From NCBI GenBank assembly GCA_043228905.1, contig JBHGNT010000002.1, positions 15,562,001 to 15,626,000 of the forward strand: a DNA stretch of 64,000 nucleotides, given 5' to 3'. A program made the position numbers and the translations under genes. The first letter of the stretch is position 1. Every line of letters starts with the position of its first letter. The notes below the pieces were generated by a model that had not been told where the DNA came from, ran no database searches, and was given only the letters and a program-made list of their open reading frames with translations. Below are positions 5,771 to 61,298 of this stretch, piece by piece. Source of the stretch: Azolla caroliniana. Taxonomy: Eukaryota > Plantae > Polypodiophyta.

Positions 5771-8700
5771 TGTCGTGAAAATCTGCTAGCTATCACGGAT
5801 CTTGAGGCGAAACTACCGGGGTTCTGGACTAGAAGGATTTAGGGCTAAATGATTTATGCACTTTAAGTTTTAAGACGACATATTTCTCTTGAATAAGAGT
5901 AAAATAGTATAAGAGAATGATTGATACTTAATTATACATAGGTACAAGAAAATCTTCGAGTAGGAGAGTATGTGAGATCAAATAATATTTAATTATGCTT
6001 ATGAGTAAACAAAGCTTAGAGTAAGAGAGTATGAATAACATTAAAGTATACTTATACATAAGCAAAACTTAAATTAAGAGAGTATGAGAGAGGAAACATG
6101 GAAAGTTTTTTATTACTAGATCATCAATCTGATGGACTTATTTTGTTTCATAATTTATTTGTTTCTATCTCCCCTTTTAGGGTATAAGAGTATGAGAGAG
6201 GAAACATAAATCTTTTCTTCTTCAAATCCCCATCCATCTCTCTTTCTTCTTAAGAATAACTCTTATTTATAGGTTTTCTATGGTTTGCTTTGTTTTTTTT
6301 CACCTAAAAGAAGCTTTGTTTATATGAGTCACGGTTTATTTCTATTACGATTTCTCTTTTGTAAGCCCAAATATATATGTAAAATACTATTGGAAATCTC
6401 TTGATGTTAGCTTTCTTATGCATCTTTCCTTTTCTAATTTGGACATTGGACGAGGAAATTATGAGCTTTTTCCTTTACCTTGCTCCTCAATTCCACGCCT
6501 TGCGTTTTTTATTATTATTACTTTTTTCTACTTTTCTTAATTTTGGAAAACCACTTCTATCTTTTGATCTTTTCATCATTTATTACAAAAGTTGACTTCG
6601 CAATATTGGTTTATTTGAACTACTATTTTATTCTCTTTTGATGGTGGTTTCACACTATGTGTTGAAAACATCGCGACCTCCACCCCCACCAAACCTGCAC
6701 CTCCTCCGATATGTGCCAAGTGTTGTACTGAGTTGCATCCTCCTAGTTGAAATATTTAATCCTTGTCCTAATATTTTCCTTTCTTCATAACCTAACTATC
6801 TATGATAGACATTGACCTTGAACCATCTCATTTGCTCCTTATCTCTCTTCTTCCAATGCCACCACGGCCATTCTTTCCACCATAGCCATGGAAACCATCC
6901 AAACCACCAAATTCGTTGTTTGAGCTTTGCACCACCGCAGTTGGTTTTCGTGTCTTTTTCTACCTTCACCAAGCATAAGCCTTCATGCACCATGGATATG
7001 TCGCCTTCATTCCGACCATCTCCATGGTCAAGGCACTTCAATCTTCCTTGTTTCGTCAATCCAGGCTTGTCTTCATTAAGCCTCGTCCAAACATCGACTA
7101 TAACTACTCCTTGTAGCCCATGCTCCAAGTACATGCTCACATTTAGGACCTTAGACGACCACATTGCATGTTTTCCGCTTCGTCCTTTTTCTTGGTATGC
7201 TCTTATGTGAGAGTTGACCATCGATTGTTCGATCTTCGTATTAGTGTCCTCTTTTGAGTTGGATACTGTGATCAAATCCCAAGGAATGCCCTTAGAATTC
7301 ACTTGGCTTGCTTGGCCCTCGTCATGCACCATTGGGCTTTGTTTGACCTCTTCATCGTATGCGTCAACTTTGATCTTGACTTCCTCGCTACCAGCTTCCT
7401 TTTCTTGGGTCTTAATTTGGTTCGGATATGTCTCTTCGGTGATGACCCTTTCTCCATCGACCGATATGTTCCCGTCTACCATTGCCCAAATCTCTTGAGA
7501 TAGTGGAGAGGAAGTCTCGACACACTTCTCATCCTCCTTCATTGTGTTGTCCATAGCCACCTCTACCTCTGAGTCTTTATCCGTGGCCATCTCTTCAAAC
7601 TCATGGGCCACATACCATTGACCTTCTCGATCGAGCATGCCTCAATTATGCTTGCCTCTTCATCGTACGCATCAACTTTGACCTTCGCTTCCTTGCCGCC
7701 AGTTTCCTCCTCTTGGGTCTTAATTTGGTTTGGGTATGATTCTTCAGTGATGACCCTTTTTCCACCGACTGATATCTCCCCATCCACCATTTCCCAAATC
7801 TCTTGAAATAGTGGGGAGGAAGTCTCGGCACACTTGCCATCCTCCTTCATTGTGTTGTCCATAGCCACCTTCATCCTGACGTTGTTGTCCTCCATTGATC
7901 TTTCGGTCGGCTCACTCTGCTTTGACATCTCAATTGCTATTGGAGCCTTCCATCTTTGAACTATCGACCCCGCCATGTCTGAATCATCTAGCCATCGACG
8001 ACGTTTGTCGAACCGATCACATGCTCTTCTTACCTCAACCCAATCCATTATGAGACCATTGGGTTGTGTTTCATCCTCTAATAGACTACTGAGTTCTCTT
8101 CTATCTTTCACATCCACCGCCTTTAAGAATTATAGAACCTTACCTCCTTTGAGAAATATTTGGTCGGTGCTTGGGAGACGATTGTATATTTGGTCGAATT
8201 TGTTGTACACCCCCAATGCATTCATGTTCTAAAATCTTTGAGTAAGAGATTATGCGAGATGTGAGATTGAATAATACTTACTTATGCTTATGAGTAAGAA
8301 TGCTTAGACTAAGAGAGTATGAATAACACTTAATTATTATACTTATACATACAAAAGTTAAAGTAAGAGAGTATGAGAGAGGAAACATGGAAAGTATCTT
8401 ATTACTAGATCATCAATTTGATGAACTTATTTTGTTACATAATTTATCTTTTTCTATCTCCCCTTGTAGGGTATAAGAGTATGAGAAATGAAACATAAAT
8501 ATTTTCTTCTTCAAATCCCCATCCCTCTCTCTTTCTTCTTAAGAATAGCTCTTATTTATAGGTTTTCTATGACTTGCTTTTTTTTTTCTCGTAAAAAAAG
8601 CTTTATTTATATGAGTTGCGGTTTATTTCTATCACGATTTCCCCTTTGTAAGCCCAAATTATACATGCAAGATATTCTTGGAAAGCTCTTGATGTTATCT

Positions 8701-8967
8701 TTCTTATGCATCTTTCCTTTTCTAATTTGGACATTGGACGCGGAAATTACGAGCTTTTTCCTTTACCTTGCTCCTCAATTCCACGCCTTGCGTTTTATTT
8801 ATTTATTACTTTTTTCTACTTTTCCTACTTTTGGAAAAACCACTTCTATCTTTCGATCTTTTCATCATTTATTACAAATGTTGACTTTGCAATATTGGTT
8901 TATTTGAACTACTATTTTATTCTCTTTTGATGGTGGTTTCGCACTATGTGTTGAAAACATCGCGACA
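5771..8967 (-). mobile_element. Non-autonomous Gag-only Ty3/gypsy element (Phygy/Selgy-like), older and internally deleted
   Basis: LTRs at about 5771-6677 and 8231-8967 (the 5' LTR has lost U5, PBS and the gag N-terminus). Termini TGTCGCG...CACGACA. PPT GGTTTGGTGGGGGTGGAG resembles that of 55547-59050. No pol. Flanks cagg/ccga do not match exactly. Confidence 0.82.
6796..8230 (-). pseudogene. Gag C-terminus + acidic linker + Trp-rich motif; frameshifted homolog of ORF 56314-58320
   Basis: VDVKDRRELSSLLEDETQPNGLIMDWVEVRRACDRFDKR aligns with IDRKERMDIGIELEDDDGANGLTEDWAKVERVCRRHDER. RIWWFGWFPWLWWKEWPWWHWK aligns with RLWWIGCRQWFGWKEWMCSKWR. Internal ~220 bp duplication (about 7348-7562 vs 7656-7870). 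Confidence 0.8.
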
Positions 8968-33185: not shown

Positions 33186-34586
33186 TGTTGGCAAATAGGT
33201 CCCTTCGGATGGGAAAAACTGAAATCAAAATCGAAACCGAAACCGAAATCGAAACTGAAACCGAAACCGATTCAGAAGACTATAATTGTAAATAGTCTAA
33301 AATGCCAGAAAATTGTTTTTGTTTATAAGCAACTAGGGAAAACTTTAGTAAACTGTAGTTGATCATTACTGTAAAGTGAGAACCAGGTAGTTGCGTCTGT
33401 AACCGTGAGTGAGAGAGTGAGAGTGTAACTCTGTAGCTGTCTGTCAAACGAAGGAGAACTCGAGGTCGTTGCCTCCAAGTTCCATATTTGTACTTCCTCT
33501 CTACTATAGTGATATGTTTTCTCGGGGTTTGTAGACCCCCGTGGTTTTTTCCCATTTCGGGTTTTTCCACGTAAAATATCGGTGTCTCTGTCTTCACATT
33601 TTTCCTGTCTGTGTGCTAGTTCTTGGTTTCTGCAAACGAATACGAACGTGTAACCGGTTGTGGCCGGTCGATTCCTAACAAAGTGGTATCAGATGGATGG
33701 AAGATTCGTTCGGCGGCATGTTTAAGCTAACCGGCTCCAACTACTCATTGTGGTAGTTGAAGATGAGAGACATGCTCATGTGCAAAGACCTCTAGTTGCC
33801 GGTACAGTTCAAAGATAAAAGACCAAACAAGATCGATGCAGGGACTTGGGAAGTGTTGCATCCGAAGGCAGCTGCATATATAAGGTGTTTTATAGACATG
33901 AGTCTATACAACAACTTCGGCGAAGAAACAGAAGCAGACGTCCTATGGAAGAAGCTCGGCATCATGTTCGAAAACAAGAACGCCGTGAACCGAGTCTCAG
34001 TATTTTGAAAAATCGTGAGGCTCCGGTATAAGGATGGCTCCAATGTGGCAGAGCACATCAATGCCTTCCAAGGATTGATGAACCAAACCACCTCTCTAGA
34101 AGTACCTCCGACTGACGAGGTATTAGCATTGTTGTTGCTGGGATCCCTTCTGGACAGTTGGGAAATGTTGGTTGTCACGCTGGGCAACGCGGGACCGGAA
34201 GGGAAACACCTATCCCTAGAGTAGGTGAAGTTGAGCTTGTTGAATGAAGAAGCTTGCTGGAAGGATCGAGAGTCCAACACCGACCAGAAGGCCTTACTAA
34301 CGAAGGTGACACGATTCGGGGAAGAAGCCGAAATCGAAGTCCCTAGAACCGAGATAAGTCAAGGACCAGGTCGAAGTCGGGGGGGAGACCCACGTGCTTC
34401 TCATGTGGGAAGCCGGGGCACTTCTAGAAAAACTGATGACACTTTCAAAAGGAGAAAGGGGGAGCTGATAGTGTAGAGCCAAAGAAAATCACAAACAAAA
34501 AGAACACCTCATCAATCGCCGTGAGTGAGGAGTTGTTGCTCATCATTGAGCAAAACGAAGTTAATCTCGCCGGTGAAGAATCGACA
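33186..34586 (+). mobile_element. 5' fragment of a Tnt1-like copia (LTR, PBS, degenerate gag)
   Basis: LTR 33186-33680 (TGTTGG...CCTAACA), PBS TGGTATCAGA 33684-33693, gag MEDSFGGMFKL..., truncated just before the protease motif and fused to LINE ORF1. Confidence 0.9.
33215..33270 (+). repeat. Hexamer array (GAAACC/GAAATC/GAAACT), about 9 units, in copia U3
   Basis: aaaact gaaatc aaaatc gaaacc gaaacc gaaatc gaaact gaaacc gaaacc. Confidence 0.85.
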
Positions 34587-35316
34587 CGAATGCTACAAAT
34601 AAGTGCAAATTTTGTGTGTTATGGGATACAAATCGTAAGAGGCCAGGATGGGTGCATATGAAAACACCTGGAATGAAAAGACTTTGTTTTAAATTGAAGT
34701 GGGAGACATTTGCAGGTCACTGTTTTGGATGTGGTGAATGGGGTCGCTTTATGGCAAAATGCCATCGTCATTGTCCTTCAACTATAGAGGTTCCTAATGA
34801 AGGGAATGGTAAGGAAGGATTTGGGAGAGATGTTGGTGTGTCAGATATGGTGGTTGTTATGGATGAAGGAACATCATCTACAGCAGGTTATAAAGAGGTT
34901 TCACTTCAAGCTTTGGGCCCTAAGAATAAGGGAACTCAATCTATGGATATGGAAAAACAAAATTTGGTGGTTATAGATAAGGGGAAAAAACCGTTGGATA
35001 GAACTAGTAATGATGTTTTCGTTGAGAAGGATTGGCATCAGGTTAAGGGCAAGTCGAAGGGCAAATCAATGAGTATGCAACGTAATAGTTTGCCCACTAC
35101 TCGTGAGACTACTCGGAAAAGTAATTCAGGAACAAGGGAGGGTCCTCAAAAAGTTCCTTGGCAAAGAAAATTTAGGGATAAGGGATTACCCCTTCTCCTT
35201 CAATTTGATTCATTGGGACGAGATGTAAACTCATCGATTTCTCAAGGTTTTCGTCAAGCGGGAGAACCTAAACAAAAGAGTTCGATAGACAACTCTAAGG
35301 ATGTGGTGCATGAAAA

Positions 35317-38300
35317 TGTCAGGAGTATGCGGAATATTGCTCGGCCACAACCGAGTCTTAGGATCAACCACAGAAAGATGGGAATAAGAAGAAATGCACG
35401 TATACACACAAACAGTAGGGCAAGAGAAAGTACACTGGATGTTTACGTGGAAAACCCTGAACGGGAAAAACCACGGGAGCCCACTACCTCCAAACTATCA
35501 GTATGTCTAAAAGAATACAACAGGAGGAGCACAGAGGCAACGACCTCGTGCTCTCAATCTTCGCCAACAGGCGGTTACAATAGAGACTGTTCAGGTTTCT
35601 CTCTCTCTGTTACGCTCTGTACAGTAGTTACACCAATAACTCTATGCATAAAAAAATAATGACAACACATTGATGCTTTACAAAACATGTTTGCCCTAAG
35701 TCATATTTATACTGATATGACTTTAGGACTATTTACATATATAGCCCCAATGGGCTCTCAGAACATAATTACATATATGTCACTTCATCCGGTGAGAGGC
35801 TCTCACCGGGCCTGCATCATCCGGTTCTCACCGGTTCTTCCTTGCCGGGTACACATAATTCGGTTCTGACCGGGCCTTCATCATCCCATCTGGAGGGACC
35901 AAAATCCTAACAAACTCCCCCTTCACTCTGACATGGGATGTTTGGTTAGTCCAATTCACTTCCGGCATGCGTCCAGCTTGTTAGGTGTCAGCACTTTGGT
36001 CAGCATATCTGACCTGTTCTCCTCCGTGTGGATTTTCGTCAACACGAACTCCCGATCTTCTACTTGCTCCCGGATCCAGTGGTACCTACGCTAGATGTGC
36101 TTTGTCCTGGAATGATAGGCGACGTTCTTTGCAAGATGGATGGCACTCTGACTGTCGCAATAGAGCCGGTATTCCTCTTGCCGGATTCCTAGCTCTCCGA
36201 TGAAGTCCTTCATCCACAATATTTCCTTGCCGGCTTCCACAGCTGCCATGTACTCCGCTTCCATGGTTGACAACGCAACCGTCTTCTGCAGCCTCGACTG
36301 CCACGAAATAGCTCCCCCCGCATATGTCATGACATATCCGGATGTTGATCGGCTGGTATCCGCATCAGTGGACATGTCTGAATCCGTGAATCTGTCGAGT
36401 TGGGGTTTACCTGAGCAGAATCGGAGGCACATACTCGAAGTGCCCTTCAAATACCAGAGTATCGATTTTACTGCATTCTAGTGCTCCTTGCCGGGATTGC
36501 TCATAAACCGACTCACCACACCGACTACATATCCGATATCTAGCCAGGTACACACCATTGCGTACATTAAGCTCTCGATGGAAGGCATATGGTACCTTCG
36601 TCTTCGGGCATTGCTTACCGGATAACCTGCAGTTTGTCGGAGTGTCGATCCGACCTTTGTCACGTACTTCTCCTATGACAGCCACAATTGCTTCTTCGAC
36701 CGGTCCCGGATGATATGCATACCCAGTATCTGTCTTGCCGGACCCAAGTCTTTCATTGAGAAGGTCCGTTTAAGGGCCTTCTTCAGCATCCGAATCTTCA
36801 CTTGGTCCTGTCCGACGATCAACATGTCGTCCATGTACAGGAGGAGTATCAGGAAGTCTCCACCTTCAAACTTCTTCACAAACACGCACTGATTGGCCTA
36901 CGTCTTGTGGTATCCTTGATCCGTCATGAAGGAGTCGAACTTCTGGTACCATTGCCGGGGAGCCTGCTTCAAATGGTAGAGGCTTTTCTACAATCGGCAA
37001 ACCAGGTGCTCCTTCCCTTTCTTCACAAATCCCTCCGGTTGCTGCATGTAGATCTCCTCTTTGAGGTCGCCGTGGAGGAATGCCGTCTTCACGTCTAATT
37101 GCTCTACCTTGAGGTCCATGCTTGCCGCTATGCTCAACACCGTCAGGATGGAAGTCATCTTTACTACTGGGGCAAATATCTCGTTGAAGTCCACGCCCTT
37201 CTTCTGTTGGAACCCCTTCACCACGATCTTGGCTTTGTATCTCAGGGGGTTGCCGTCATCTCCCGGTTTCAGCTTGAACACCCACTTGTTTTGAAGTGAC
37301 CTCTTTCCTTTCGGCAACTCCACCAATTCGTACGTGTGGTTCTCATGCAGGGAATCCATCTTGTCCTACATGGCACTTAACCACTAGTGGTTATGGGTGT
37401 CATCCTTCGCTTCTTTGAAGCTTTCCGGCTCCCCCTCATCGGTTAGCAACACATGCTCTGCAACCGGAAATCTCCGGGGGACTCTTCTCTCTCTGAGAGG
37501 ATATCTCCGACTTCGGTATTCGGTAACCGGCTCCTGCGTCTGTTCTTCATCCGAATCCGATTCGGGATCTTGGCCGGTTTCGGTTACACCTTCATCTTCT
37601 TCTTCTTCCGCCTGTTCGGTATCCTCACCGTAACCGGCTGGTTCTTCGAGTGTCAACCGGCTCTTAGTCGGGTAGGTCTGTATCTCATCGAACCGATCCT
37701 TACCGGTCGACTCGGAGTTCATTATCTTCTTCTCCGACTCCCAGTCGGCAAGGGTCTTGTCCTCCATGAAGACTATGTCCCAACTCCGGAACACCTTCTT
37801 GTCGATCAAGTCCCACACCCGGTAACCGAACTCATCATCGCCGTATCCAAGGAATACGCATGGCCTAGAATTCGGATCCAGCTTTGCTCTCTTATCCTTT
37901 GCAACATGCACATATGCGAGACACCCGAACACCTTCAGATGCCGGTAAGACACTTCCTTACCGGTCCACACTCTCTACAGCGTGTCTCCATCCAAGGGCA
38001 CTGAGGGTGATCTGTTTATCATGTACATCGTTGTCGCCAGCGCCTCAGTCCAAAACGTCTTGGGTAACCTTGCATGTGCTAGCATACTCCGGACCCTCTC
38101 CATTATGGTCTGGTTCATCCTCTCAGCCAGCCCGTTTAGTTCTGGCATCTTCGGCACGGTAAATTCAAGCCAGATTCCCTTCGAGTGGCAGTACTCCTCA
38201 AACTGCACCCGGTATTCTCCTCCGTTATCTGCTCAAACCGCCTTCAACTTCCAGCTGGTTTCTCTTTCCTCTCTTGTGTGGAGCTCCTTGAAGACGGATA

Positions 38301-53476: not shown

Positions 53477-55651
53477 TAAAGATTATTTCTGGAAAAGAAA
53501 TAGGATAAGGTCAGAGATATAGTCATAACATCATGTCGTGATGTAAACATATCATGGGCGAGCATTAATCGATATCATTATCTCACGTCAATACCCCTCT
53601 AGACGTATGAGATGAGGTTCAAGATCAGGTTACTATGGTAACACAAAGGTGTTTTAAAAACCATGGGGGTGACAAATAAATGTCTTTCCCTGATCTCTAT
53701 ATCGATTTTTTCATGGTGGCTCCCCGAGGCTCAACCATGTATGTTCGCGTCATGAATAGTTTATACACGAAAAAAAATGTTAACAATAAACTATGTTTCG
53801 GTGCCCACATATGTGGTTTCGGCTCTTTAAGTCCTATTACGAGGACCCCGAGGTGCACTTAGACCTTAAGTCTAAACATGTGTTATAGTCATATGTATCA
53901 AGGATGTTGTATGGTCTTGATCATATTTGAACTCGAGACCTCGAGAACAAATACATTAAACACTTGAGCCAACCAAGTAAGTTGCTCTTCTCGAATGCTT
54001 AATGTTTGATGCGTATAAGAGATATGCGAGGCAATTTATCATATATGTTTTTTTTTAAAAGAACATATATGTCAAGGTCCTTATTTCGCCCTCATTTACC
54101 AAAACTATGTTGGTACGTTACCTAACCTCAAGTCTCGTAATTACGATGGCATATGCCAAAGGGCAACCTAATGGTCAAGCCAAATGAGCCCTCGTTTCGT
54201 AGTAGGCTCACGTGGGCCATCACATGGTCACGTCATTACGAATGCCTCTCGTAAGAACGAGCTCATGGTGGCATCGTATCCATGTAACGAGGGAGGGATG
54301 TTGGATACGTGCGTCATTGGAGCGACCTCACTTGAAGTGGGTCAAGCCCTACGTACTCAACATCATTTTGGCTATTCGCGTTTCTTTACGTAACGAAATC
54401 GAGGTCGTCAACGGGGTTATCAACAATAAAAAAAATGTTGAAAAAGGGATGGTGACAACGCCATTCTCACAAAAATGTGAGGACGGCCACCAACATCCTT
54501 TTCCCGACAAGGACAACTTTCGAGATAATCACGTAATAACGAATATACACATATGTTTACTTATCACATATATACGATCAAATACGTATATATGTGACCA
54601 CATATGCCTATATTAAACATATCGTTATAGTAAATAGCCACAAATGATGTGATCGAGATACGTAATCGAGGTATATACCTCTACGCACACGAAACATCCA
54701 CAAATAAGAGATCATCGTAATACGCAATGGAGGTATTGACCTCTTACACATACGAGACCAAACGCATATCGTTTACAACAAATCAAGGTATTAAACTCAT
54801 ACGCAAACGTAACATATGTTCGTGAACGTAATACGTAATACGCATACGACACTCATCACATATTATTAATATGTCAAACGAGGTATTGACCTCGTGCACA
54901 TATGTAAACGTTTTAGATAATCAATTAAAGACCAATACAACATCATTGACTTAATGAAAAAAATGACATATAAACTAAACACATGATTAGATGGGAGAAA
55001 AGAGAATAGAAAAAAAAATATGGAAAGAGTTACCGAAGTTCTTTGTTGATCGTTGTCTGGATCAAGGCCAACCGCACAACGATCGATCAGCATCAATCAA
55101 AAGACAAATGAAAAACAAAGAAACATTAGTAAAAAAATCTGATACCAAATATTATAGATCTTGGTACTAACGTAAGCTTAAGATAAGGATAATGAAAAGA
55201 TAGATAGAAAGGAGAAAGAGAAAGAAGGGTGCCGATCCACCCGACCACCCCCGAGCAAAGGGATCGAGACGGACTCGAGCCTCGATCGGCGTCCCATACC
55301 ACCGCCGTGGCGTCGAGTCGTACCTGGTGCTGGCGCGCTCGCTACAAGAGTTGACCCACCACACGAGCAGAGTCTTGATGTAGTCAAAAGATGATCAAAT
55401 GAGGGTAGCTAGGCCTCTTATTTATAGCGATACCCAAGGCCCCCAGGCAAGTTCACACTTGACCTAATGGGTTGTCTCAATCTCGAGGATTAAAAGTAAT
55501 CCTCCCCTTCTTTACACTCTCGTTTAACCCTCACACTTATCCACGTTGTCGTAGTGTATTTTGTACACTACGTGAAAAACGTATATAGTATTAGATTCAA
55601 TAAAAAATGAAGAAATAGAAGAAAATAGCAAAATAAATGGAACATGCATAG

Positions 55652-55709
55652 GGCAAGATTCGAACCTTGCACCTCCATGTTAATAATGTAATGTCTTACC
55701 ATTACACTA
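55652..55709 (-). promoter_or_regulatory. tRNA-derived A-box/B-box module in the Gag-only element LTR (second copy 58427-58484)
   Basis: Minus strand: TAGTGTAATGGTAAGACATTACATTATTAACATGGAGGTGCAAGGTTCGAATCTTGCC, with a GCAAG/CTTGC T-arm-like hairpin, followed by T-runs. Confidence 0.75.
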
Positions 55710-56279
55710 GCATTTCATTAGTGTTAAAGCATAGATGTCCCACATAGAAACCTAAATTCACGCTAGGATAAACATTAGAAAAACGCATAACAAAAGAAAA
55801 AGCTACACATACACATCTAGCATGCATGATAAAAAACGCACAAGTTAGAAAAAAAGCATGATCACTTTAGATAAAGCATATAGTCTATCTATAGGAAAAG
55901 CATGGGGTCTATAGTTAGAGAAAAAGCATGGATTACTAAGACTTCCTCATCACTACATAAGGATGGGAAGCACAATGTAATTGTGTGTGAAAAATATTTG
56001 GAAACTAGATATGTTTCTAAAAAACACCAATTAATAAACTATACTCGTGGGATTCACGAGAATTCTATATCATTCTCTTTCAACCGAAGTTTATATTCTT
56101 ATATTCATATTGATTAATCTAATACAATACACTCGTGGGATTCACGAGTTTGCTATAACTCTTTCTTACAACATATTTATATTCTTATTAGCCTTAAAAC
56201 TCTCTTCTTCCTAGTCCAAAACCCCAGCGGTTCCCACCCGACTCACGCAACGATCTGGAGCCGAAAGGCACGACACAGT

Positions 56280-56297
56280 TGGTGAACCCGACGTGAA
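56280..56297 (+). other. Primer binding site complementary to the 3' end of tRNA-Trp
   Basis: TGGTGAACCCGACGTGAA is the reverse complement of the plant cytosolic tRNA-Trp 3' end (...TTCACGTCGGGTTCACCA, recalled), 4 nt after the LTR. Confidence 0.85.
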
Positions 56298-56313
56298 GGC
56301 GGGTGGCAAGGAG

Positions 56314-58320
56314 ATGGAGAATCAACAAGAGGCGATGAACATGATGATAATAATGTTTGAGCGGATGCAACAAGAACAACGTGCGATGTCGGAGATGAAG
56401 GCGGCAGTAGAGCGGCTTCTGCGACGAAACGGGGAATTCAACGGTAAGGGTGTGTCACGCTACCTACGTGAATATAAGGCGGAGATGATGCAATATCGGA
56501 TACCGGAAGGATTGCAAGTGATATCCTTTAGTCGGGTGGCCTCGGACGAACTACAAGAGAGAATCCACAAGATACAACAACAAAACTCGACATGGGAGTC
56601 CTTTGAAGAAGCTTTACGGGAGGCATATGACTATGAGAGATGGACGGGACGAGATCGACGAGAATTCGACGAATGGGTGGCGTCGGAGAAGACTCACCGA
56701 AGTGCAACGCAAGCGTTCCTAGAGTTCGAGCATCGTTTTGCTCGACTCTCGGAGCGGGAACGAAGATTGGTGGGAGGAGATAAAGTCTTAATGTTCGTAA
56801 GATCGATCGATCGGAAAGAAAGGATGGACATTGGGATCGAACTCGAAGATGATGACGGTGCGAACGGTCTTACCGAGGATTGGGCCAAAGTCGAAAGGGT
56901 ATGCCGAAGACATGATGAAAGGAAGCTGAGAATCTCGTCAACAACGACATGGCCCATGAAGGATGGTCGATTGAGGAAAAACGATGAAGCCAATATGAAG
57001 GCCGAAATACAACAGGATGGTGCGACGGAAGAGGGTGTAAAACAAGCTACCCTCTTGTCTTGCGAAAGAACAACGACAAAGGATAAGGCCGATAACCCAA
57101 GTGTAGAAGAAGATTTCAGAATACAAGTGTCCGAAACATCGGGTGAAAAAGGGGTAAGCATAATTGATGCAGTGAAAGAGAGCAAGGAGGACTTGATTGA
57201 GGAGGTCACCACGAAAGATGACATCGAATTGAAGGTGGCTATGGACGAATCAACGACGGATGGCCATATCGAGACTTCCCCACCACTGATTTCAGAGACT
57301 CCGGCGGTTGCGATCGAAAGGCAACGTGAGACCGAAGAGACGGAAGGTGGCGGAGAGAAAACGAATGTCGAAGCCGACGAATACGATGAAGAGATAGCCG
57401 AGAAGAATGCTAAGGGTGAAACTATGAAAGAAGGTAATACCGAGGATTCATGCCAACAATATCTAGAGACTTCGACGGTTGTGTCCGAGAACCAACGTGA
57501 GACCGGAGAGACGGGAGATGGCGGCGAGGAAGGTAAAGTCGGAAGTCGGTTCGGATGGAAAATGATCCATCCGAAATTCCAATCTAAAAGAAAGTGCGAC
57601 AATGCGGAGGTCGGGTCTACGACGGGAGAAGCGCGTAATACAGAACACGCTCTACGGCGAATAAAGAAACGCGTGTTATGGCGAATAAAGAAGCACGCGC
57701 TACGGCGAGAAAAGAAGCATGCATTACAACCACACGAGGACCGAACAACGAGCACATATCGGAGGACCTACGTAGCGAACAACGGAAAGAAGTGCCGAAA
57801 GTCGAACCGGACAAGGCAGGTGAAAACGAAGAAAAGAAAGCAAATCCGGACGAAAAGAAAAGAAAAGAAACCGACCCGAAAGAGCACTGAATCGGTAAAA
57901 ACCGATCAACCGAGTCCGGATCGACCGAATACAAATCGGAAAGGAAGCCGAACTAAACGAAAGACGATCCGACGAGACCGAATCGGAAGTAAGCTAATCC
58001 GACTAAACCGAAAATCCGAAAAGAAGTCGAGATTGATGAAGAAAAGAAAGAGGGCAAGAAAAGATACTACCGCGGATGACAAGGATCAAGCGGGCCATGC
58101 AAAAAGCGAACGAAGACTATGGTGGATCGGATGTCGACAATGGTTCGGGTGGAAAGAATGGATGTGCTCCAAATGGAGAGACAAAGTCAACATAACAAGA
58201 GAAGTCGAGGGTACTACGAGCCGGCAACGAAACCAATCGGGTAGAGACCGGACGGAGGAGACTAACAAACACCAACAACTTCGGCACATACCGGAGGATG
58301 TGCGGGTTTGGAGGGGGTGA
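56314..58320 (+). CDS. Intact ~668-aa Gag-like protein with acidic linker, K/R-rich region and C-terminal Trp-rich motif
   Basis: Open frame from ATG 56314 (the ORF track starts at GTG 56293) to TGA inside the PPT. N-terminal gag-like FNGKGVSRYLREYKAEM...TWESFEEALREAY. Homolog at 6796-8230. Confidence 0.85.
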   Translation: MENQQEAMNMMIIMFERMQQEQRAMSEMKAAVERLLRRNGEFNGKGVSRYLREYKAEMMQYRIPEGLQVISFSRVASDELQERIHKIQQQNSTWESFEEALREAYDYERWTGRDRREFDEWVASEKTHRSATQAFLEFEHRFARLSERERRLVGGDKVLMFVRSIDRKERMDIGIELEDDDGANGLTEDWAKVERVCRRHDERKLRISSTTTWPMKDGRLRKNDEANMKAEIQQDGATEEGVKQATLLSCERTTTKDKADNPSVEEDFRIQVSETSGEKGVSIIDAVKESKEDLIEEVTTKDDIELKVAMDESTTDGHIETSPPLISETPAVAIERQRETEETEGGGEKTNVEADEYDEEIAEKNAKGETMKEGNTEDSCQQYLETSTVVSENQRETGETGDGGEEGKVGSRFGWKMIHPKFQSKRKCDNAEVGSTTGEARNTEHALRRIKKRVLWRIKKHALRREKKHALQPHEDRTTSTYRRTYVANNGKKCRKSNRTRQVKTKKRKQIRTKRKEKKPTRKSTESVKTDQPSPDRPNTNRKGSRTKRKTIRRDRIGSKLIRLNRKSEKKSRLMKKRKRARKDTTADDKDQAGHAKSERRLWWIGCRQWFGWKEWMCSKWRDKVNITREVEGTTSRQRNQSGRDRTEETNKHQQLRHIPEDVRVWRG

Positions 58321-61298
58321 GTGTCGTAGTGTATTTTGTACACTACGTGAAAAACGTATATAGTATTAGATTCAATAAAAAATGAAGAAATAGAAGAAAA
58401 TAGCAAAATAAATGGAACATGCATAGGGCAAGATTCGAACCTTGCACCTCCATGTTAATAATGTAATGTCTTACCATTACACTAGCATTTCATTAGTGTT
58501 AAAGCATAGATGTCCCACATAGAAACCTAAATTCACGCTAGGATAAACATTAGAAAAACGCATAACAAAAGAAAAAGCTACACATACACATCTAGCATGC
58601 ATGATAAAAAACGCACAAGTTAGAAAAAAAGCATGATCACTTTAGATAAAGCATATAGTCTATCTATAGGAAAAGCATGGGGTCTATAGTTAGAGAAAAA
58701 GCATGGATTACTAAGACTTCCTCATCACTACATAAGGATGGGAAGCACAATGTAATTGTGTGTGAAAAATATTTGGAAACTAGATATGTTTCTAAAAAAC
58801 ACCAATTAATAAACTATACTCGTGGGATTCACGAGAATTCTATATCATTCTCTTTCAACCGAAGTTTATATTCTTATATTCATATTGATTAATCTAATAC
58901 AATACACTCGTGGGATTCACGAGTTTGCTATAACTCTTTCTTACAACATATTTATATTCTTATTAGCCTTAAAACTCTCTTCTTCCTAGTCCAAAACCCC
59001 AGCGGTTCCCACCCGACTCACGCAACGATCTGGAGCCGAAAGGCACGACAACGTGTATAGAATACTACAGTAAATTCTTACCACGGGATATTATATGGTC
59101 ATGCACGTAACAGTGATCGTCACAGTCGGAGTTGATGGCGTAGTTGGTGAGTTGTCGGCTAGTGGAAGCCGACTCGCATATCTTCTTACGAAATTCTTCT
59201 TCGTGGTGACCGATTTTTCCGCAATGTCCGCATTCGACCGAGCTTTGTCGGTTCGGACTAGAATGGAAGCTCCCCCTTCTTCCGAAGGTTCCTCGATGGC
59301 TTCTGTCTTGATGCCGAAATTGCGAGTTGTTTTCGTAAGTCAGGCCTCGTCCGCCTCGTTCGTCTCATCCTTGGCCGAATCGGCCTCTTCTTGCACGGTC
59401 GCGTCCTCTTCCTCCATCTGAATGCATGTAGAGCATGTGACCTTCCGAGGCGTTGCTCCTCGTTCGAACATGGTTTTCTTCGACCAACAACATAGATTGA
59501 AGATCAAAGAAGGAGAGTGGATTCTCCTGTGTTAGTACGGCGGTCCGCATCGCGCCAAATCGTGGTGCAAGGCCGCCGAGGCATATTTGCACCATCTCAT
59601 CATCGTCCACATTGATGCTTATTGAGCCAAGCGAGTTGCAAAGCTCCTTGATCTTCAAGGTGTAGCTTGTGATGGACATATCCCTTTGTTGAATGTTGTT
59701 CAATTCTTTGTGGAGTTTAATCTTTCTCGCGGTAGTGTTGGCGGCGAAAATTCTTCAGCGTCTCGGCTTCTCGAATGTACCCAAGCATGTGGTCGTGAAC
59801 ACATGTCGCCAAGCAATACATCACTCGGCTTGCCGCTTGCTCCCACGTTGCATAGTCGGCATCTTCTTGGTTGGTTCTTGTGCTTCCTTTATGTAACCCC
59901 AATAGCCTTGGCCAACAAGGTATTGGTGCATCTTGTACTCCCAAGATGTGAAGTTGTTTATGGCCAACTTCTCACTAGGGAGAGCGCTCCCCATTTGAGT
60001 ATTCATTGTCGATGAAGCTTCCTTTCTTCTTTTCCTTCTCTCTCGAACACGAGCTATGTAGTGGTACTACGACAACGATGAACCGGTTCTTCTTGAATGT
60101 CGGCGTAGAGCACAACACATGATCACGATGAGGCGAGTGGGCTAGATCGATCTACCAAATCGCTCTAATACCATGTAAAGAATCGATGGGGATTCTTGTG
60201 TAGCGGAAGAGATGTGTGTTATGTGTATGTGTGAGAGGAATTAGAGGAGAGATGAGAGAACACAAGATAGATAGAAAAAGAAATACTTAAGAAGAAGAAG
60301 ATGTATATTTCACAAGTAGAATGGATATACAAAATTGTAGCATTACAAGGAGTCACAACCGACTTAGTATAAAGTATGAGGAGGGTGCTTTATATAGAGT
60401 CACCCTCTCTCTTCATTAACTTTACAACAACCACTCTCTCTCTTGGGGAATGTGAAGACTCATAGTCATGGGGAATATGTAACTCATTAGTTATGTGTCA
60501 TAGAATATGATTCTGTGACACATAATTAATGTATAGAGAGTAGTGGTATGACTCTTGACCTTTGTGTAATCATGGATTCTCAAAAGGTGTGTTTACACAT
60601 TGCACTATGTTGAGCTTGATTCTCAACACCTTTCAATCAGCTCAATATAAGGATACTTGGAGTAGGTTGGATTGAATGTATGTAATGCATACCAAAGGAT
60701 TTTTACCAGAGATTTTGGATATTTCAGTGTCTAATGGGTCAATTATATTAGATCATTTCCCATTAATTTTTGAATTCACTCACCACTCAATTATAGCTTT
60801 TCATGAGTTTTTTGGAAAACCGTCGTTGACTTTTAATTCATCATTTTTGGATCATGAGGTCTTCCATGCCTATATGTTTCAATCGATTGATACATTTGCC
60901 TATCGTGTTCAAATTGATGGGTATGAAGCATGGGAAGTATTTGTTGCAAATGTTTAGAGGTTAACTAGGTATTATGGAGTTCACCATGCTTTTAAATGCA
61001 GAAAGAAATTAAGTTCCTAGTTAATTTGCTTGATAAATGCAACTCATTGTTAACTTATTAGCCAACAGATGTAGAGTTGATGGGATATCAAGAGGTATTA
61101 ATTTCTACGATGCATGATCTTACGACAAAAAATTATCAACATGCTAAACTACATCGTCTAAGACAAGAAGTGGAGGATGCTAATTGTCAATCACATAAGT
61201 TTTTTCATGACCTTCATGAATCACATGTATGACATAATGTGGTAAGGTTAGAGGAATATGGTATCATGTGTTCCGATCCTCAAAAAATTGTGAAGAAA

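What the first reader, a model, noticed from the sequence alone, without database searches (positions are those of the whole stretch)
55547..59050. Very young Gag-only LTR element encoding a novel Gag-acidic-basic-Trp-rich protein
Seen: apparently identical 729-bp LTRs, perfect TSD, intact PBS and PPT, and one open ~668-codon ORF filling the whole interior, with no PR, RT, RH or IN. After the gag-like ~215 aa come an E/D-rich linker, a K/R-rich tract (with 24-bp HALRRIKK-like repeats at about 57645-57725), and a Trp cluster. No CCHC knuckle is visible. Known: Gag-only non-autonomous LTR elements (TR-GAG) exist in angiosperms. Inference: this is a recently mobilised parasite of an autonomous gypsy partner that keeps its own modified Gag. 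The basic tract may replace nucleocapsid. Caveat: an alternate frame (57678-57890) reads acidic, so the basic tract may reflect compensating frameshifts.
Basis: partly seen in the sequence, partly recalled or inferred. Interest (0 to 1): 0.75.

Follow-up and report, generated by a model that had tools for sequence, protein, structure and literature searches.

The report
Parasite retrotransposon with borrowed half-capsid
This is a freshly inserted copy of a several-hundred-copy plant jumping gene that encodes only a capsid protein with a long tail and likely hitchhikes on a full-length partner element, from which it has taken its ends and the front half of its capsid gene.

Summary
Observation confirmed: identical 729-bp LTRs, a 4-bp ACGT target duplication, a tRNA-Trp primer site, a PPT and one 668-codon ORF without PR, RT, RH, IN or CCHC. 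It is not a one-off deletion: an 18-mer of its gag occurs 450 times in the genome, and most sampled copies are young, 1.8-2.2 kb inside, with NCGN duplications (Phygy hallmarks). A young autonomous Ty3/gypsy family shares its LTR ends, primer site and PPT. The Gag is a chimera: codons 1-95 group with that partner, codons 96-215 with an older Gag-only lineage whose other families match a different autonomous family. Six of 100 copies carry fresh partner tracts. The capsid half and a Trp motif are under purifying selection. The acidic and basic spacers keep frame but are weakly constrained, and the tail after the Trp motif is not conserved. The basic frame is not a recent frameshift product, but extreme basicity is family-specific, so nucleocapsid replacement is plausible and untested. 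Verdict: a variant of known Gag-only (TR-GAG, RLG_Quinta-like) elements with a clear helper switch. Expression not shown. Interest 0.5.

The parts
55543..55546 (.). left copy of 4-bp target site duplication (ACGT, NCGN type)
   Evidence: NCGN in 60 of 60 perfect TSDs among 69 measurable copies
55547..56275 (+). 5' LTR, 729 bp; termini and 3' ~155 bp shared with the autonomous partner
56280..56297 (+). primer-binding site complementary to tRNA-Trp(CCA)
56314..58320 (+). single 668-aa ORF: capsid, acidic spacer, basic spacer, Trp motif, read-through tail; no CCHC, PR, RT, RH or IN
56314..56598 (+). codons 1-95: N-terminal helix and most of the predicted capsid N-lobe, derived from the autonomous partner lineage (68% aa to partner, 25-31% to the five sister Gag-Trp proteins that have this part)
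56599..56958 (+). codons 96-215: end of N-lobe and predicted capsid C-lobe, from the older Gag-only lineage (66-72% aa to sisters, 35-37% to partner); pN/pS 0.14-0.38; DNA junction 56601-56616
56959..57543 (+). acidic low-complexity spacer, in place of the partner's CCHC/protease region; weakly constrained (pN/pS 0.36-0.82)
57646..58110 (+). K/R-rich spacer with 24-bp repeats (57637-57719); one of three versions in the family; frame conserved, residues weakly constrained
58111..58185 (+). Trp motif (Trp about every third residue), conserved in frame across several distant families; pN/pS 0.24-0.54
58186..58320 (+). unconserved read-through tail; its last codons overlap the pre-PPT sequence shared with the partner (58273-58353, 91% over 81 nt)
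   Evidence: motif-to-LTR distance 172, 134 or 132 nt
58310..58321 (+). polypurine tract
58322..59050 (+). 3' LTR, identical to 5' LTR
59051..59054 (.). right copy of target site duplication
5949..8966 (-). older, broken relative of a sister family in the same window (gag remnant, acidic region, non-basic spacer, Trp motif; LTR pair 670 of 743 columns identical)

Best explanation
This is a young copy of a Gag-only Ty3/gypsy retrotransposon family of the Phygy type that likely moves by using the reverse transcriptase and integrase of a specific full-length partner family while its own Gag likely favours the RNA that encodes it. Shown: structure, copy number, a partner with the same LTR ends, primer site, PPT and NCGN target preference, a chimeric capsid gene, recent partner-derived tracts in some copies, and purifying selection on the capsid half that the partner did not supply and on the Trp motif. 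Inferred: an older Gag-only lineage, whose other families match a different autonomous Phygy family, switched helper by recombination, taking the LTR ends, primer site and codons 1-95. This would give the RNA the partner's 5' priming and packaging signals and give the protein a partner-type N-lobe that could co-assemble with the partner's Gag and Gag-Pol. Template switching in co-packaged RNAs would explain the fresh tracts. The tail likely acts as a disordered acidic-then-basic linker whose basic part binds RNA non-specifically in place of the lost zinc knuckle (about 0.4), ending in a Trp motif that likely serves as a hydrophobic contact site. Its partner is unknown.
For: 450 exact hits of a family 18-mer and 216 of a partner RT 20-mer, controls 0. 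None of 150 best gag hits has a frame over 790 aa. 57 of 69 measurable copies have <=4 LTR mismatches and 60 of 69 a perfect NCGN TSD. Partner: 12 of 16 fetched loci have a 5667-bp interior with gag-PR and RT-RH-IN frames, mostly 0-5 LTR mismatches, and the same ends. Phygy is defined by 4-bp NCGN TSDs and tRNA-Trp in 81% (PMC6317226, passage and supplementary row). Capsid fold: pLDDT 94, top matches dArc1, Arc, PNMA, Ty3 and Copia capsids, best Z 9.8, rmsd 8.1 over 160; Arc N-lobe Z 8.8, rmsd 2.4 over 72. Chimera: partner-type diagnostic residues dominate positions 5-95 and lineage-type residues 96-217; the two halves give different trees; DNA homology to the partner ends at 56616 and to a sister family begins at 56601. 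Six of 100 copies carry 98-100% partner tracts. Selection: premature stops are 17 of 159 private changes against 1 of 67 shared ones (p=0.016); gag codons 96-215 p=5e-5; 25 distinct in-frame ATG-to-motif lengths in 63 copies against 8 out-of-frame lengths in 9. Precedent for basic clusters without a knuckle: Ty1 Gag (PMC4974528, passages).
Against: No transcript or protein is shown. Fold matches are individually weak (no Foldseek E<=0.001; Z under the tool's caution level for helical proteins). All six partner tracts end at the same place (internal nt 283-294), so they may go back to one capture, and DNA-level gene conversion is not excluded. The N-half tree joins this family and the partner clade with only 62% support. 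The basic spacer shows no significant purifying signal within the main subfamily (p=0.37; shared changes 13 non-synonymous or stop to 3 synonymous), and is near neutral in charge in P0010 and weakly basic in P0009. One frameshift that cuts off the Trp motif is shared by two copies (L056, L070), and sister families L136/L140 lack the motif, so it is dispensable in some settings. In-frame lengths partly follow automatically from 3n repeat units. Copies were taken from ranked hit lists, not at random.
Confidence: 0.78

Rival explanations
1. Only the capsid matters. The tail is kept open merely so that translation ends near the 3' LTR and the RNA escapes nonsense-mediated decay; basic and acidic stretches are by-products of purine-rich filler, and the captured 5' block matters as RNA signal only.
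For: Spacers vary in length and origin, with pN/pS 0.6-0.8 in most comparisons. Alternate frames are also K/R-rich (51 and 48 against 67). The tail after the motif changes frame freely. In Ty1 the packaging signals lie in the first ~380-580 nt including gag codons (PMC4974528, passages). Long-3'UTR decay in plants is recalled, not tested.
Against: The Trp motif is conserved at protein level between distant families (16 of 34 third-position against 7 and 7 first- and second-position changes versus the P0005 family). K+R exceeds base-composition shuffles by about 4 SD. The order acidic, net-basic, Trp recurs in most sister proteins.
Confidence: 0.3
2. A mutualist or general Gag donor, as proposed for RLG_Quinta: the protein supplies extra capsid in trans to both families, with no preference for its own RNA.
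For: Partner-type N-lobe and similar youth of both families; the model is proposed in PMC11302176 (section 5 read).
Against: Stops are almost never shared between copies, which a purely trans-acting protein would not predict, unless few intact source copies produced most insertions.
Confidence: 0.15
3. A simple internal-deletion derivative of the partner with neutral filler.
For: Shares ends and 5' gag with the partner.
Against: Codons 96-215 are 35-37% identical to the partner but 66-72% to other Gag-only families; the interior has no partner homology between 56616 and 58273; selection is frame-specific.
Confidence: 0.02

Closest known systems
TR-GAG elements (Chaparro et al. 2015, PMC4350172; passages read)
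   Same: LTR element under 4 kb with PBS, PPT, TSD and one ORF encoding Gag, no RT/RH/IN, signs of recent activity.
   Different: TSD is 4 bp NCGN, not 5 bp. No Pfam Gag hit, so the paper's HMM screen would likely miss it. No zinc knuckle (TR-GAG1 has one). Long acidic-basic-Trp tail. Identified partner and chimeric capsid.
RLG_Quinta with RLG_Cereba in wheat (PMC11302176; section 5 and passages read)
   Same: Gag plus a domain of unknown function; shares LTR termini, PBS, PPT and 3' part of the LTR with one autonomous gypsy partner; recombination involving gag reported.
   Different: Quinta is described as derived from its partner by loss of RT/IN and is centromeric; here the body comes from another lineage and only the ends and half of the capsid come from the partner. 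DUF1 was not compared.
Semi-autonomous RLG_Sabrina/RLG_WHAM and host switches of RLC_Angela (PMC9744471; passages read)
   Same: Long-lived Gag-encoding non-autonomous lineages; switch to a new autonomous partner by transfer of LTR sequence is proposed there.
   Different: Those keep a protease and the switch concerns LTRs; here the switch extends into the capsid gene and ends near the boundary of the two lobes.
Phygy lineage of Ty3/gypsy (Neumann et al. 2019, PMC6317226; passages and one supplementary row read)
   Same: 4-bp NCGN TSD, tRNA-Trp PBS, no chromodomain in the partner.
   Different: Described members are 7.7-10 kb autonomous elements; this one is 3.5 kb and the partner about 7.3 kb. 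No RT tree against REXdb was possible.

Membership tests
TR-GAG | LTR retrotransposon under 4 kb with LTRs, PBS, PPT, TSD | tested here: met
   3504 bp
TR-GAG | single ORF encoding Gag | tested here: met
   No Pfam hit, but 51% identity over 203 aa to the partner's gag and capsid fold
TR-GAG | no RT, RH or IN | tested here: met
TR-GAG | 5-bp TSD as reported for the coffee elements | tested here: not met
   4 bp in 60 of 69 copies, none extending to 5; TSD length follows the helper integrase, so this lowers 'is a TR-GAG in the strict sense', not 'works like one'
TR-GAG | transcribed | tested here: inconclusive
Phygy (REXdb) | 4-bp NCGN TSD | tested here: met
Phygy (REXdb) | tRNA-Trp PBS | tested here: met
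Phygy (REXdb) | RT/RH/INT phylogenetic placement in the Phygy clade | not testable with these tools
   The element has no pol; no REXdb reference set was available to place the partner's RT
autonomous/non-autonomous pair (criteria in PMC11302176) | identical PBS and LTR termini, conserved 3' part of LTR | tested here: met
   Same spacer and PBS, first 12 and last 16 LTR bases identical, 77% over the last ~155 bp and 5' gag
autonomous/non-autonomous pair (criteria in PMC11302176) | only one autonomous family shares these features | tested here: inconclusive
   True among 8 autonomous-type loci of three families compared; not a genome-wide survey
Ty1-type basic nucleic-acid chaperone domain | RNA binding and annealing by basic clusters without zinc knuckle | not testable with these tools
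   Composition fits; activity needs a bench assay

The most novel reading that the evidence does not exclude
An old Gag-only lineage switches helpers by swapping the capsid N-lobe, so that its chimeric Gag co-assembles with the new helper's particles and draws in its own RNA through a basic tail, while the conserved Trp motif is a new functional module (a membrane or condensate anchor, or a Gly-Trp Argonaute hook that blunts silencing).
Probability: 0.2. Interest if true: 0.8.

Novelty: new variant of a known kind. Interest (0 to 1): 0.5.

Why it matters
Helper switches of non-autonomous retrotransposons have been proposed from LTR trees. Here one is written into the capsid gene, with a junction near the lobe boundary, both parent lineages present in the genome and recent recombinants visible. 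It offers a natural system to ask whether partner choice is set by 5' RNA signals or by capsid compatibility, and why a Gag-only element keeps its protein under selection. Because the Gag has no Pfam hit, hundreds of such copies would be filed as non-coding by standard annotation.

Tried and rejected
Pfam on the ORF: no family. PDB sequence search with the gag profile: no match at E<=1. Search for longer (gag-pol) homologues in the protein collection: none, weak evidence by the tool's own note. Atlas feature search with sister protein P0011 gave Retrotrans_gag clusters at 0.90, a lead only, and nothing on the tail; the window's own Trp region could not be searched there. Sequencing runs: no RNA holder listed; four runs laid were contigs of guessed type with partial cover, uninformative on expression. 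Idea that the basic spacer is a frameshifted copy of the acidic region: no protein or DNA similarity above shuffles, and in-frame alignment to other subfamilies (69-88 of ~86 aligned nt in most well-scoring comparisons of 57763-57890, all of them for 57892-58060); rejected for this family. Protein-guided dN/dS was set aside for low-identity regions because it biases the ratio down; DNA-guided values are quoted. Literature searches for a description of this family or motif found none: (open-licence library only). PMC7466625 (part 2 of 6 and passages) has no occurrence of 'gag' or 'non-autonomous'. Repbase and the P. patens genome paper's supplements could not be checked. Earlier scan notes: nothing by sequence or words; the 8 shown of 38 by place concern other elements. 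No complex prediction was run, and the tail was not folded.
Full report
Observation. The element spans 55547-59050 with two identical 729-bp LTRs, a 4-bp ACGT duplication, a PBS at 56280 and a PPT before the 3' LTR. The PBS matches tRNA-Trp(CCA) genes of this genome. One ORF of 668 codons fills the interior; it has no Pfam hit and no CCHC pattern. With the moss rate of 9e-9 quoted in PMC7466625 (an assumption for this genome), zero mismatches in 729 bp suggests an age under about 0.23 million years. It is nested in the LTR of a chromodomain gypsy element whose own LTRs differ at 3 of about 425 sites. A 4-bp NCGN duplication with tRNA-Trp priming is the signature of the Phygy lineage described from a moss (PMC6317226), so the host is probably a moss; I did not identify it.

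Family. A DNA search gave 40 scored full-length hits of 3711 candidates; 23 of the 30 fetched have an open ORF. Because that set is chosen for likeness along the whole interior, I also selected on gag alone: 150 scored hits of 10910 candidates, none with a frame over 790 aa. I fetched 80 of the 125 not already held, from the ranked list and not at random. Of 69 measurable (11 dropped for cut or unrecognised ends), 60 have a perfect 4-bp TSD, all NCGN; the median LTR mismatch is 1. Of 73 with a located PPT (7 dropped), 72 have a locatable Trp motif, 63 in frame with the ATG and 48 fully open to it. The in-frame copies show 25 different lengths; the 9 out-of-frame copies show 8, one shared by two copies. 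After the motif the distance to the LTR is 172, 134 or 132 nt, so the last ~45 residues are not conserved. An 18-mer present in 98 of 100 sampled copies occurs 450 times in the genome.

Partner. The protein search returned 9 relatives, one with a CCHC knuckle and protease-like region (P0007). It led to an autonomous family: 12 of 16 fetched loci have a 5667-bp interior, 11 of these with both long frames open and 11 with 0-5 LTR mismatches; RT, RNase H and integrase domains are confirmed, the protease hit is below cut-off. It shares the first 12 and last 16 LTR bases, the PBS with its spacer, and the PPT region (91% over 81 nt). A partner RT 20-mer occurs 216 times.

Chimera and helper switch. 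A 73-sequence alignment gave a confident model (pLDDT 94) whose best matches are Arc, PNMA, Ty3 and Copia capsids, with the N-lobe at about 32-107 and C-lobe at 111-206 (individually weak, but consistent). Codons 25-95 are 68% identical to the partner and 25-31% to the five sister Gag-Trp proteins that have this part; codons 100-200 are 37% and 66-72%. Diagnostic residues switch at 95/96 and DNA homology switches at 56601-56616. Sister Gag-only families (P0005 family, 65 hits, young; L136/L140) instead resemble another autonomous Phygy family at their LTR ends, clearly for L136/L140 and more weakly for the P0005 family. Six of 100 copies carry tracts 98-100% identical to the partner, with different left ends but one common right end, so the number of independent events may be as low as one. 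Some copies also carry more partner-like LTRs, up to 92%.

Selection. In 48 gap-free copies of the main subfamily (3 of 51 dropped), private changes look near neutral while shared ones are depleted of amino-acid changes in codons 96-215 (p=5e-5) and of stops overall (1 of 67 against 17 of 159, p=0.016); the acidic (p=0.11) and basic (p=0.37) regions show no significant signal. DNA-guided comparisons between subfamilies and families give pN/pS 0.14-0.38 for the capsid C-half, 0.36-0.82 acidic, 0.63-0.71 for the alignable basic part and 0.24-0.54 for the Trp motif; for the capsid half the effect is confined to the annotated frame. The Trp motif ends the ORF in P0004, P0005, P0008, P0009, P0010 and P0011 and in the older element at 5949-8966 of this window, but was not found in L136/L140.

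The basic tract. It exists in three versions, and the version here is a mosaic of the other two, aligned in frame. Alternate frames hold 9 and 6 stops and do not resemble acidic regions. K+R in the 150 residues before the motif is 40% here, 20-30% in most relatives and 16-17% in the P0009 family and P0010. All of these proteins lack CCHC while P0007 has it. Ty1 Gag uses basic clusters instead of a knuckle (PMC4974528, passages), so replacement is plausible, but it is not tested and cannot be a strict requirement of the lineage.

Mechanism. Most likely: LTR-driven RNA is translated, the chimeric Gag favours its own RNA and joins particles containing partner Gag-Pol, tRNA-Trp primes, and partner integrase inserts at NCGN. 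Structure, partner, chimera and selection are shown; transcription, co-packaging, cis preference and tail functions are inferred. The main rival keeps all this but treats the tail as an open spacer that protects the RNA from decay.

Novelty. Gag-only elements (PMC4350172), Gag-plus-unknown-domain partners (PMC11302176) and host switches (PMC9744471) are in print; PMC13570524 (passages) treats such elements as a continuum. I found no description of this family, of a half-capsid capture or of the Trp motif in five searches, which do not cover Repbase or subscription papers. Verdict: real, a new variant of a known kind, interest 0.5.

Noticed in passing
window 5949-8966 (-): Older broken member of a sister Gag-only family with a non-basic spacer and a longer Trp motif; LTR pair about 90% identical.
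   Followed up: partly
G000 C18:6.696-6.710 Mb, C17:11.94-11.95 Mb, C12:3.269-3.278 Mb, C16:15.409-15.417 Mb: Evenly spaced runs of 6, 4, 4 and 3 copies; the C16 run shares LTRs between units.
   Followed up: no
These families also start about 100 codons into the capsid.
   Followed up: partly
L129, L133, L136, L140: Further Gag-only elements of the same capsid lineage (acidic region seen in L133, L136, L140), L136 and L140 without the Trp motif and with ends like a second autonomous Phygy family; four of the 20 PBS-selected loci from the first 10 Mb of C1.
   Followed up: partly
window 56215-56313: The gag frame is open 33 codons upstream of the ATG into the LTR, also in the partner, and P0007 is annotated from an upstream start; the true start codon is unverified.
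   Followed up: no
window 9556-54400: The window is a nest of young LTR elements (several chromovirus-type gypsy, a copia) and LINE-like RT fragments; the frame at 34577-35656, apparently inside an LTR pair, has no Pfam hit.
   Followed up: no
G000 C8:17.80-17.82 Mb and C16:4.99-5.11 Mb: Dense clusters of matches to the tRNA-Trp 3' pattern, some evenly spaced at about 1.2 kb; not checked as genes.
   Followed up: no
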